From an uncultured Verrucomicrobiota bacterium (GTDB taxonomy: Bacteria; Auribacterota; JABMQX01): DNA of 64,000 nucleotides. Below are positions 46,709 to 47,905 of the stretch, piece by piece. Each line of letters begins with the position of its first letter. The first letter of the stretch is position 1. The notes beneath the pieces are model-generated. The model made no database searches and had not been told where the DNA came from. It saw only the letters and a list, made by a program, of their open reading frames with translations. A program made the translations under genes and the position numbers. The stretch spans positions 2,221 through 66,220 of the forward strand of contig CAZFAP010000001.1 of the NCBI GenBank assembly GCA_964516325.1. Reading direction: 5' to 3'.

Positions 46709-47905
46709 TTACGGCTTTCGGACTTCCGCTATCTTGCTGGTGTTCGGGTCTATCACCCAAACCTCCGAAAATCCTTCGGGCGCCAGCCGCCGCTCAAAGG
46801 GGGCCTTCATCCTGAAGTAAACAGCCAATTCCACTTTCAGAAGAATGTTTCCACCCTCATATCCCAGACGATCGAATGCCTCTTTTTCTATTTTGTCAGC
46901 CACGACTCCGGGTTGAGCCTTGTACCACGGGAGATCCTGTTCTGGTCTGGCGTAGTGCCCGGCGAACTTGCTCGCGTCCTGAAAGTCCGCCGAATAGCCC
47001 TTCCAGAGTGCCTCGAAATCAAATTCTCGATCGTTTATGGTCAGGGTCGCCGCCTGCGACTCTCTGGCTCCCACGGAGTTGCCGACGACGCATACGTAGT
47101 TGCCTTCATCGCTCTTCTGGACCGACGAGATCGTGTATTCGGCCTGAACTGCGCCTTCGATCTTCTTACCGTCTTTCATCCACTCGTACGATGCGCCTCC
47201 CGCAGCCACAACATGGAACGTAACCGGATTCCCCACTTCCGCCGTCGTAGATTTGGGTTGAGATGAGATGATGGGGAGTCGCCCCGTCTTGAAACTGTAC
47301 GCCTGCTTTTCCATGCGGTTGCGGGCAAGGTCTGTTGCCTCGACCATCACCGTCACGGTCTGTCCTTCCTGGAAGTCTTCGGCTGGGTCGCAAGAAACCA
47401 GATACCCATTCTGGCTTTCGGTGATTTCAGGGTTCCCAGGCTGATCGTTCACCGTCATCGTGACTGTCTTCGCGTCCACTCCAATGCCGTCATCCTTGAC
47501 ATGCAGGGTGATCGCCGCGCCGATGGGAACGTTCTCTGCGTCGTTAGGTGGTGAAGGATTCGCTGTATAAGGGGGCCGAGTGTCCACGACCCTGACGGTT
47601 CTGGTCGTCCTCCTTTCATTTCCTGCGGAATCCTTGACTCTGTAAACCAACTTGTATTCGCCCAGCTTTGCATGGTCCACAGCCCCCTCGACGACCACCG
47701 CACTCGTAAGGTCTCCGCCGTCGCCGTCTTCGGCTGTGTACCCTGGCTCGCTGTAGGGACCATTCCCCATTTCCAGGGTCATGAAACCATCGTCCTTCAA
47801 TGTGAGCACTGGGGGAATGCTCTCGACGGCCTTATAGACGATGCCCATGCCGCCTTCGCCCAACTTCTCAAGGACGCGGTAATGGGAGATTTCTTGCCCG
47901 ATCAT
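46709..47905 (-). CDS. Chimeric ORF. The first 26 residues are the N-terminus of a Hanks-type Ser/Thr kinase (glycine-rich loop). They are followed directly by a DUF5011 domain, an Ig-like I-set domain and a C-terminal domain of unknown function.
   Basis: [26 protein letters not shown], then [18 protein letters not shown]...[15 protein letters not shown]...[25 protein letters not shown] (DUF5011), then an Ig-like stretch ([13 protein letters not shown]). It has no signal peptide. Confidence 0.6.
   Translation of the reverse strand: [398 protein letters not shown]

What the first reader, a model, noticed from the sequence alone, without database searches (positions are those of the whole stretch)
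46709..47905. ORF that starts as a Ser/Thr kinase and switches after 26 residues into a DUF5011 + Ig-like architecture
[26 protein letters not shown] is an unmistakable Hanks-kinase N-terminus running through the glycine-rich loop to just before the VAIK lysine. The next residues begin a DUF5011 repeat of the kind found in the neighbouring secreted protein. An Ig I-set-like domain follows. There is no signal peptide, although DUF5011 and Ig-like domains are normally extracytoplasmic. This may be a recombination scar or pseudogene, a metagenomic assembly chimera, or a real cytoplasmic fusion.
Basis: seen in the sequence. Interest (0 to 1): 0.55.

Follow-up and report, generated by a model that had tools for sequence, protein, structure and literature searches.

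The report
Receptor kinase gene with internal deletion
This gene is what remains of a membrane-spanning sensor kinase after an in-frame deletion removed nearly all of the kinase, the membrane anchor and part of the outer region, so it is an ordinary gene remnant rather than a new kind of fusion protein.

Summary
ORF 46709-47905 (-) encodes 398 aa. It starts with 26 residues of a Hanks-kinase N-terminus (beta1, Gly-rich loop, beta2). It then continues as DUF5011 (34-106), Big_5 (108-207), Ig (211-289) and an unannotated C-terminal domain of about 105 aa with a predicted NTF2-like fold.

The explanation comes from orthologues. Two full-length relatives, P0017 (974 aa) and P0022 (975 aa), are single-pass receptor Ser/Thr kinases. 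Their layout is Pkinase, TM helix, 2 Ig, 2 DUF5011, Big_5, Ig, then the C-terminal domain. The window protein is colinear with residues 1-29 and 600-973 of both. About 575 residues are missing in frame, and five codons (K25-S29) align to both deletion ends.

Every complete protein carrying the C-terminal domain has a kinase or pseudokinase and a TM helix. The deleted TM helix explains the missing export signal. The family's promoter-like upstream motif is retained.

An independent Logan contig reproduces the junction exactly, and no repeat could have caused a mis-join, so an assembly chimera is unlikely.

The most likely reading is a real, probably young, deletion allele that cannot signal and cannot be exported. 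Interest is low. The only modest novelty is the rare parent receptor-kinase family and its unmodelled C-terminal domain.

The parts
47995..48000 (-). -35-like hexamer TTGCTG of the gene's putative promoter
   Evidence: TTGnnG sits 16 nt upstream of TATACT in the window and in the orthologous loci L001, L117 and L119. It falls below the generic sigma-70 scan threshold, so the call rests on conservation only.
47973..47978 (-). -10-like hexamer TATACT
   Evidence: TATACT lies at -73 in the window, -74 in L001 and L117, and -79 in L119. In 2000 shuffles, none gave a three-way shared 6-mer at the same offset within 2 nt.
47913..47917 (-). Shine-Dalgarno-like AAGGA, 8 nt before the ATG
   Evidence: Read from the sequence. 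An AGG core at this position is invariant in the upstream alignment with L001 and L117.
47828..47905 (-). Kinase remnant, residues 1-26 (beta1, GEGGMG Gly-rich loop, beta2). It ends before the VAIK lysine.
   Evidence: 76-85% identical to the N-termini of the kinases P0017, P0022 and P0011. PDB matches are all kinases, at the Gly-rich loop region in the rows shown. In the whole-protein model it is a low-confidence hairpin, pLDDT 33-55.
47819..47833 (-). Deletion junction, codons K25-S29 (AAG GCC GTC GAG AGC). These codons align to both ends of the deleted segment. The likeliest break is between A26 and V27 (47828|47827).
   Evidence: KAVES aligns to KALDT (residues 25-29) and to KVVDT (600-604) of P0017. 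At DNA level the two parental sites in L001 share AAGG at the start of the 15-nt zone and, after 5 nt in which only one T matches, GACAC (10 of 14 positions).
47588..47806 (-). DUF5011 / Bact_surface_Ig-like domain, residues 34-106, complete
   Evidence: Pfam PF16403, E 2.1e-19, profile positions 1-71 of 71. Colinear with the second DUF5011 of P0017 and P0022.
47285..47584 (-). Big_5 bacterial Ig-like domain, residues 108-207
   Evidence: Pfam PF13205, E 1e-6, 29.9 bits against a cutoff of 23.6, profile positions 1-105 of 105. The same domain is at 684-783 of P0017.
47039..47275 (-). Ig_3 / I-set immunoglobulin domain, residues 211-289
   Evidence: Pfam PF13927 E 7.9e-13 and PF07679 E 2.7e-9. 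Model pLDDT about 87-96.
46712..47029 (-). C-terminal domain, residues about 293-398, NTF2-like fold, with no Pfam or NCBIfam model. Presumed to be the distal sensor module of the parent receptor.
46709..47905 (-). Whole ORF (398 aa plus stop): an in-frame deletion allele of a receptor Ser/Thr kinase gene

Best explanation
The ORF is an in-frame internal-deletion derivative of a single-pass receptor-type Hanks Ser/Thr kinase gene.

The parent, as seen intact in the orthologues P0017 and P0022, has this layout: cytoplasmic kinase domain (about 9-268), TM helix (about 310-331), then an extracytoplasmic chain of Ig, Ig, DUF5011, DUF5011, Big_5, Ig and an NTF2-like C-terminal domain.

In this genome a deletion of about 1.7 kb (about 575 codons relative to P0017) joined codon 26 or so, just after the Gly-rich loop, to the linker in front of the second DUF5011 domain. 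The join is probably an illegitimate recombination or slippage event at a short similarity (K-A/V-V/L-D/E-T/S, 15 nt or less).

Shown:
- The gene is colinear with full-length orthologues on both sides of the gap.
- The catalytic motifs (VAIK Lys, HGD loop, DFG, SPE) and the only TM segment are lost.
- The four remaining domains are intact.
- The family's promoter-like upstream motif and an SD-like site are retained.
- The junction appears in an independent assembly.

Inferred:
- The mechanism of deletion.
- That the gene is still transcribed and translated.
- That the product is a soluble cytoplasmic chain of about 43 kDa that can neither phosphorylate nor reach the cell surface. That would make it a non-functional, probably young, remnant (pseudogene in the functional sense).
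For: (1). Window residues 1-29 align to P0017 1-29 (76% identity). Residues 25-396 align to P0017 600-972 (53% identity, E 4e-134, one single-residue gap). One search shows a single 575-column gap.

(2). The same colinearity holds for a second full-length orthologue from another dataset, P0022 (79% over residues 1-29; 57% over residues 23-396 against 601-973).

(3). P0017 has Pkinase at 9-268 and a TM helix at 310-331 (hydropathy 3.03), followed by Ig x2, DUF5011 x2, Big_5 and Ig. The window protein has no hydrophobic segment.

(4). Among 1.84 billion representatives, the C-terminal domain occurs only in proteins that, where complete, have an N-terminal kinase (P0017, P0018, P0022) or pseudokinase (P0021) plus a TM helix. 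P0019 and P0020 are contig-cut fragments. Related kinase- or pseudokinase-TM proteins with DUF5011/Big_5 ectodomains (P0023, and the protein on L005) are cut before their C-termini.

(5). TTGnnG-16 nt-TATACT lies at -73 to -79 in the window and in three orthologous loci (0 of 2000 shuffles). The 5' end is therefore the native 5' end of this gene family, not that of a random kinase.

(6). The Logan contig ERR4334735_236043 (1771 bp) is 100% identical to window 46647-48417 and runs through the junction without a break. The longest k-mer shared between the junction region and the rest of the window is 13 nt.

(7). The two parental sites in L001 share 10 of 14 nt (AAGG at the start and GACAC at the end), consistent with a microhomology-mediated join.

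(8). The retained domains score as full-length Pfam matches, keep all 13 family-invariant residues of the C-terminal domain and fold confidently. Residues 1-30 have low confidence.

(9). No displaced kinase fragment is present elsewhere in the 64-kb window.
Against: - Reads could not be inspected. This organism was found in only one sequencing run, so the frequency of the deletion allele in the population is unknown.
- The ORF is fully open and shows no decay, and its promoter-like motif is conserved. This fits a recent deletion, but it fits continued selection on the shortened protein equally well.
- The orthologues are only 53-57% identical, so the ancestral gene of this lineage could have had a somewhat different ectodomain. 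The figure of 575 residues is relative to P0017.
- No syntenic locus from a close relative was available to show the full-length gene between the same neighbours.
Confidence: 0.8

Rival explanations
1. Assembly artefact. The genome really carries the full-length receptor kinase, and the assembler skipped about 1.7 kb (repeat collapse or chimeric join).
For: The source is a metagenome-assembled contig, and the organism is seen in one run only. The parent gene contains internal repeats (2 DUF5011, 3 Ig), which is the usual cause of collapses.
Against: One end of the junction lies in the non-repeated kinase N-terminus, not between two repeat copies. At most 15 nt (5 codons) can be common to the two sites. 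That is less than the assembler's word size (recalled as k=31 for Logan, my own knowledge, not checked here), so the words spanning the junction must exist in reads. A second, independent assembly (Logan contig L004) is 100% identical over 1771 bp and does not break at the junction. No k-mer of 14 nt or more from 47650-47960 recurs anywhere else in the window. No full-length allele 90% or more identical exists in the 5.8-billion-protein collection.
Confidence: 0.05
2. A real, selected, functional short protein. After the deletion the cytoplasmic (or unconventionally exported) chain of DUF5011, Big_5, Ig and NTF2-like domains acquired or kept a role, for example as a ligand-binding decoy or scaffold.
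For: The ORF is intact, the promoter-like motif and SD-like site are conserved, all retained domains are complete, and every invariant residue of the C-terminal domain is kept.
Against: Neither search that used the window's own sequence (the whole protein against 5.8 billion proteins; the C-terminal domain against 1.84 billion representatives) found another protein with this short architecture. Every complete relative has a kinase or pseudokinase plus a TM helix. There is no export signal. The 26-residue kinase stub has no conceivable activity without the catalytic lysine and the HRD and DFG motifs. An in-frame outcome is expected by chance in one of three deletions, and lack of decay is expected if the event is recent.
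Confidence: 0.1
3. Fusion of two different genes. The 5' end of some kinase gene was joined to a separate secreted DUF5011/Ig gene, for instance by recombination with the neighbouring 7xDUF5011 gene, rather than by a deletion inside one gene.
For: A 7xDUF5011 gene lies 2 kb away (50009-52438), with repeats about 50-55% identical to the ORF's DUF5011. The kinase N-terminus is generic, with 85% identity to the unrelated kinase P0011.
Against: Both halves are found in the same order in single orthologous genes (P0017, P0022), together with the same upstream promoter-like motif. The downstream Big_5, Ig and C-terminal domain part is absent from the neighbouring gene. No DNA identity longer than 13 nt exists with the neighbour. 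The linker V-E-S-I-P-P is of the DUF5011-to-DUF5011 type seen inside P0017.
Confidence: 0.03

Closest known systems
Bacterial Hanks-type (eukaryote-like) receptor Ser/Thr kinases with a single TM helix and an extracytoplasmic sensor, such as PknB/Stk1 (PASTA ectodomain) and PknD (beta-propeller ectodomain)
   Same: The parent gene, seen in P0017, P0022 and P0018, has the same plan: N-terminal cytoplasmic Pkinase domain, juxtamembrane linker, one TM helix and a C-terminal extracytoplasmic sensor. The kinase part of P0017 matches NCBIfam PknB_PASTA_kin at E 2.5e-87, below its equivalog cutoff.
   Different: The ectodomain is a chain of Ig, DUF5011 and Big_5 domains ending in an NTF2-like domain. 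It contains no PASTA or propeller. The window gene itself has lost the kinase core and the TM helix, so it is not a kinase.
Deletion-derived pseudogenes and truncated alleles produced by microhomology-mediated illegitimate recombination in bacteria
   Same: One contiguous internal segment is missing relative to orthologues. A short sequence similarity is present at the two ends. Essential motifs are lost while the flanking sequence is untouched.
   Different: The deletion happens to be in frame. The result is therefore a clean 398-aa ORF that gene callers accept (it is recorded as a protein from NCBI and Logan sources), rather than a visibly broken gene.
Secreted or surface multi-DUF5011 (Bact_surface_Ig-like) proteins, such as the neighbouring gene 50009-52438
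   Same: They share the DUF5011 module at about 50-55% identity.
   Different: Those proteins have an N-terminal hydrophobic signal or anchor and tandem DUF5011 arrays. They have no Big_5, Ig and NTF2-like tail and no kinase-derived N-terminus.
NTF2-like extracytoplasmic sensor domains, for example the NTF2 domain of the anti-sigma factor RsgI9 (PDB 7sjy)
   Different: Sequence identity is only 4-16% among the top 20 hits. No Pfam or NCBIfam model detects it. The ligand is unknown.

Membership tests
Hanks-type protein kinase (Pfam PF00069 Pkinase) | Gly-rich loop GxGxxG in subdomain I | tested here: met
   GEGGMG at residues 16-21. It aligns to the Gly-rich loops of P0017, P0022 and PDB kinases.
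Hanks-type protein kinase (Pfam PF00069 Pkinase) | Catalytic core: VAIK lysine, HRD/HGD catalytic loop, DFG, APE/SPE | tested here: not met
   All of these lie in the deleted segment (P0017 residues 27-600). The window protein continues directly into DUF5011 after residue 26.
Hanks-type protein kinase (Pfam PF00069 Pkinase) | Match to the Pkinase profile at the gathering threshold | tested here: not met
   No Pkinase hit even at E of 0.1 or less. P0017 scores 158.7 bits.
Receptor kinases carrying the C-terminal domain (P0017, P0022, P0018, P0021) | C-terminal NTF2-like domain with the family's invariant residues | tested here: met
   phmmer E 3e-26 to 9e-7 to the family. All 13 invariant columns are kept. 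Fold.
Receptor kinases carrying the C-terminal domain (P0017, P0022, P0018, P0021) | Ectodomain module order DUF5011, Big_5, Ig, C-terminal domain | tested here: met
   The order is the same and alignment is end to end with P0017 and P0022. It is also seen in the fragment P0019.
Receptor kinases carrying the C-terminal domain (P0017, P0022, P0018, P0021) | Complete N-terminal kinase or pseudokinase domain | tested here: not met
   Only 26 residues remain.
Receptor kinases carrying the C-terminal domain (P0017, P0022, P0018, P0021) | Single TM helix between the kinase and the ectodomain | tested here: not met
   No window of 19 residues has hydropathy above 0.96. P0017 reaches 3.03 at 310-331.
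Receptor kinases carrying the C-terminal domain (P0017, P0022, P0018, P0021) | Conserved upstream TTGnnG-16-TATACT element | tested here: met
   At -73 in the window, -74 in L001 and L117, and -79 in L119.
Deletion-derived pseudogene / truncated allele | Orthologues are longer and colinear on both sides of one gap | tested here: met
Deletion-derived pseudogene / truncated allele | Loss of parts indispensable for the parental function | tested here: met
   The catalytic core and the membrane anchor are both gone.
Deletion-derived pseudogene / truncated allele | Signs of decay (frameshifts, stops, loss of conserved residues) or lack of expression | tested here: not met
   The ORF is open, the domains are intact and the promoter-like motif is kept. 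Expression cannot be tested with these tools.
Secreted DUF5011 surface proteins | N-terminal signal peptide or anchor | tested here: not met
   The N-terminus [19 protein letters not shown] is hydrophilic. No in-frame upstream extension is possible, because the ATG at 47905 is the first start codon after the stop that bounds the ORF.

The most novel reading that the evidence does not exclude
The shortened gene is not dead. The in-frame deletion would have created a new soluble intracellular protein (a 26-aa kinase hairpin plus DUF5011, Big_5, Ig and NTF2-like domains) that is expressed from the retained promoter and is kept by selection, for example as a cytoplasmic ligand sink or scaffold. 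This would be gene birth by truncation of a receptor kinase. A separate, more modest point is that the parent family appears undescribed. These are receptor kinases and pseudokinases whose ectodomain ends in an unmodelled NTF2-like domain, and only 5 clusters were found in 1.84 billion proteins.
Probability: 0.1. Interest if true: 0.45.

Novelty: new member of a known kind. Interest (0 to 1): 0.2.

Why it matters
The main value is as a correction. A protein that looks like an exotic 'kinase stub plus surface-domain' fusion, and that gene callers and databases accept as a normal 398-aa protein, is really a receptor kinase with its middle removed. Annotation pipelines would label it only by its DUF5011 or Ig domains and miss this.

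A secondary point is that the comparison exposes a very rare family of bacterial receptor kinases and pseudokinases. Their ectodomain is a stalk of Ig-like domains tipped by an NTF2-like domain that has no Pfam or NCBIfam model. This may interest people who catalogue bacterial sensor domains.

Nothing here bears on a long-standing open question.

Tried and rejected
- **Paralogue or displaced fragment in the window.** tblastn of the 34-aa N-terminus and of full-length P0017 against the window found no kinase paralogue or displaced kinase fragment in the 64 kb.
- **Genome-contig scan with A1.** The patterns chosen were generic DUF5011 motifs. The window's own genome is not among the species representatives, and no locus with the C-terminal domain was returned. 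The hits were surface proteins that share modules. L005 turned out to be a pseudokinase-TM relative.
- **Metagenome-contig scan with A2.** It was swamped by Ig-domain hits. None of the 79 loci has the C-terminal domain.
- **Profile search of the C-terminal domain alignment A3 in the 5.8-billion collection.** It returned nothing, probably a limitation of the word index, and is uninformative.
- **Exact look-ups of the flanking genes.** Only the same run, ERR4334735, carries them. No second population or close relative was available for a synteny test.
- **Search with the deleted segment of P0017.** It found two more family members (P0022, P0023), but nothing that could be tied to the window's organism. 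Kinase-domain matches dominate the remaining listed hits.
- **Generic sigma-70 scan.** No promoter was found. The promoter call rests on cross-locus conservation only.
- **Rfam scan of 42-53 kb.** Only the tRNA was found.
- **Literature searches for ERR4334735 and for DUF5011 plus kinase.** Nothing relevant turned up.
- **Taxonomy.** Gene content (a PFL-like glycyl-radical enzyme with its activase, and radical-SAM proteins) suggests an anaerobe.
- **dN/dS.** Not attempted. At 53-57% protein identity synonymous sites are saturated, and almost all of the divergence predates the deletion.

Full report
**1. Observation**

An upstream extension is impossible, because the ATG at 47905 is the first start codon after the stop that bounds the ORF.

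Pfam places four elements:
- Bact_surface_Ig-like/DUF5011 at residues 34-106 (E 2e-19, full profile).
- Big_5 at 108-207 (E 1e-6).
- Ig_3/I-set at 211-289 (E 8e-13).
- Nothing at 290-398.

The first 26 residues are too short for the Pkinase profile, but they are clearly kinase-derived:
- 85% identical to the N-terminus of the kinase P0011 (E 1.9e-7 against 5.8 billion proteins).
- 76% identical to P0017 over 29 residues and 79% to P0022.
- All 81 weak PDB matches are protein kinases; in the rows shown and the two alignments printed the match lies at the Gly-rich loop region near the kinase N-terminus.

No 19-residue window of the protein is hydrophobic. The maximum is 0.96, so there is no signal peptide or anchor.

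**2. What the orthologues show**

The homology search found the identical protein P0001, which is on record in NCBI and Logan. It also found one cluster at 53% identity whose representative, P0002, is a contig-end fragment. That cluster also contains a complete 974-aa protein, P0017, carried on three contigs from JGI and Logan samples.

P0017 is a single-pass receptor Ser/Thr kinase:
- Pkinase at 9-268, with VALK, HGD, DFG and SPE motifs.
- A TM helix at 310-331.
- Two Ig domains at 354-526.
- Two DUF5011 domains at 530-680.
- Big_5 at 684-783.
- Ig at 800-857.
- A tail of about 105 residues.

Window residues 1-29 align to P0017 1-29. Window residues 25-396 align to P0017 600-972 (53% identity, E 4e-134, one single-residue gap). 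The multiple alignment shows a single gap of 575 columns.

A later search with the missing segment found a second complete orthologue from an unrelated ENA assembly, P0022 (975 aa). It has the same architecture and the same two-sided colinearity: 79% over residues 1-29, and 57% over window residues 23-396 against 601-973. The orthologues therefore do not share the junction. They carry a complete kinase, a membrane anchor and three more ectodomain modules where the window gene has nothing.

**3. Direction of the change**

A stub consisting of beta1, the Gly-rich loop and beta2 cannot be an ancestral state. An exhaustive phmmer scan of 1.84 billion representatives with the C-terminal domain found only five clusters.

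Complete members that carry the C-terminal domain:
- P0018: Pkinase, TM helix, acidic linker, C-terminal domain.
- P0021: pseudokinase with HGN, TM helix, 3 DUF5011, and two copies of the C-terminal domain.
- P0017 and P0022.

Cut members and relatives:
- The fragments P0019 and P0020 carry the C-terminal domain but are cut by contig ends.
- P0023 (Pkinase, TM helix, then DUF5011, Big_5 and Ig modules) and the very large protein on L005 (pseudokinase, TM helix, then DUF5011, Big_5 and Ig modules) are related, but both are cut before their C-termini.

The window gene is the only complete protein found with the C-terminal domain that lacks a kinase and a TM helix. The event is a deletion in this lineage.

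**4. The junction**

Codons K25-S29 (47819-47833, AAG GCC GTC GAG AGC) align both to KALDT at the kinase site and to KVVDT at the DUF5011-to-DUF5011 linker of P0017. In the orthologue's DNA the two sites share 10 of 14 nt, AAGG at the start and GACAC at the end.

This is the signature expected of microhomology-mediated illegitimate recombination or slippage. The mechanism is inferred, not shown.

The linker V-E-S-I-P-P has the spacing of a DUF5011-to-DUF5011 linker (V-D-T-A-P-P). It does not match the Ig-to-DUF5011 linker (L-D-E-P-P). This suggests that the ancestor had at least two DUF5011 domains, as P0017 does. The break falls in an inter-domain linker, so the DUF5011 that follows is complete.

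**5. Is it an assembly artefact?**

- A Logan contig assembled independently from run ERR4334735 (L004, 1771 bp) is 100% identical to window 46647-48417. It passes through the junction without a break.
- No k-mer longer than 13 nt from 47650-47960 recurs elsewhere in the window.
- One end of the join is in unique kinase sequence, not between two repeat copies.
- At most 15 nt can be shared by the two parental sites. The assembler's words, which I recall as 31-mers for Logan (my own knowledge, not checked here), are longer than that. Words spanning the join must therefore be present in reads.
- No full-length allele 90% or more identical exists in the protein collection.

I could not inspect reads, and the organism appears in only one run. 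A polymorphic deletion cannot be excluded. A pure mis-join is unlikely (about 5%).

**6. The 5' end is native**

Upstream of the ATG, the window, L001 (P0017), L117 (P0018) and L119 (P0022) all carry TTGnnG, then 16 nt, then TATACT, at -73 to -79. In 2000 shuffles, none gave a three-way shared hexamer at matching offset. An AGG-containing SD-like element is also conserved.

This argues against a fusion of an arbitrary kinase 5' end to a different gene. It suggests, by inference, that the remnant is still transcribed.

Recombination with the neighbouring 7xDUF5011 gene is also unlikely. There is no DNA identity between them, and the Big_5, Ig and C-terminal domain tail is absent from that gene.

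**7. What the product can and cannot do**

The product lacks the catalytic lysine, the catalytic loop, DFG and the activation segment, so it cannot be a kinase. It has no TM helix or signal peptide, so its ectodomain modules would stay in the cytoplasm.

The whole-protein model shows four confidently folded domains, with block pLDDT means mostly 70-96. It also shows a low-confidence N-terminal hairpin, pLDDT 33-55.

All 13 invariant residues of the C-terminal domain are retained and the Pfam matches are full-length. This fits a recent event or continued selection, and the data cannot separate the two. I rate a non-functional young remnant as most likely and a selected soluble protein at about 10%.

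**8. Comparison with known kinds, and novelty**

In plan, the parent matches PknB- or PknD-type bacterial receptor kinases. The kinase domain of P0017 matches NCBIfam PknB_PASTA_kin at E 2.5e-87, below its equivalog cutoff. The ectodomain is different.

The window gene fails the defining tests for a kinase: catalytic core, Pfam threshold and TM helix. It is best filed as a deletion-derived truncated allele of that receptor family.

That makes it a new instance of a well-known kind of event. The only modestly new element is the rare parent family and its unmodelled NTF2-like C-terminal domain.

**9. Verdict**

- The interpretation 'recombination scar or pseudogene' is supported, in the sharper form 'in-frame internal deletion of one receptor-kinase gene'.
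- A chimera is unlikely.
- A functional fusion is unsupported.
- Interest is 0.2.

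Noticed in passing
window 46712-47029 (-); also P0017/P0022 C-termini, P0018, P0019, P0020, P0021: The C-terminal domain of about 105 aa has an NTF2-like predicted fold and no Pfam or NCBIfam model. It occurs in only 5 clusters (at 50% identity) among 1.84 billion proteins. In every complete protein it lies in the extracytoplasmic part of a kinase- or pseudokinase-TM protein, ending the chain. It is sometimes duplicated (P0020, P0021).
   Followed up: partly
L005 1720-7617 (JAUYEE010000069.1) and L116 1-1319 (JAUYEE010000070.1): A very large protein (at least 1966 aa, cut by the contig end) in an unclassified MAG. 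Its layout is a Zn-ribbon-like N-terminus, about eight long helical repeats, a pseudokinase (HGN in place of HRD), a TM helix, then an array of DUF5011, Big_5 and Ig domains. A paralogous fragment ending in the C-terminal domain sits at the start of the next contig.
   Followed up: partly
window 42356-43900: tRNA-Leu(TAA) at 42356-42442 is followed by a DUF6788 ORF (42885-43289) and a stretch with only short, overlapping ORFs. This could be a remnant of an integration site. The block with the FG-GAP, DUF6807, kinase-remnant and DUF5011 genes lies just downstream.
   Followed up: no
window 48371-49729 (-) and 50009-52438 (+): The 452-aa protein upstream of the remnant has a hydrophobic N-terminus (probably a secretion signal) and matches no Pfam or NCBIfam family. 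Part of its C-terminal 70 residues or so weakly resembles the C-terminal tail of the 7xDUF5011 protein (11 of 35 identical, pairwise E 0.004). This could be a shared C-terminal sorting or anchoring domain.
   Followed up: partly
window 47906-48370: A 465-nt intergenic region lies upstream of the remnant. The gene call recorded for the Logan contig places an ORF there (it corresponds to window ORF 47902-49062). That ORF overlaps the 452-aa gene in another frame and looks spurious (rich in Arg, Pro, Ser and Thr).
   Followed up: no
window 9833-15433 (-): A 1866-aa protein with four BACON_2 domains and a right-handed beta-helix region.
   Followed up: no
window 56899-60065 (-): A PFL-like glycyl-radical enzyme (787 aa) with an adjacent radical-SAM activase. 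Together with other radical-SAM genes in the window, this points to an anaerobic organism.
   Followed up: no
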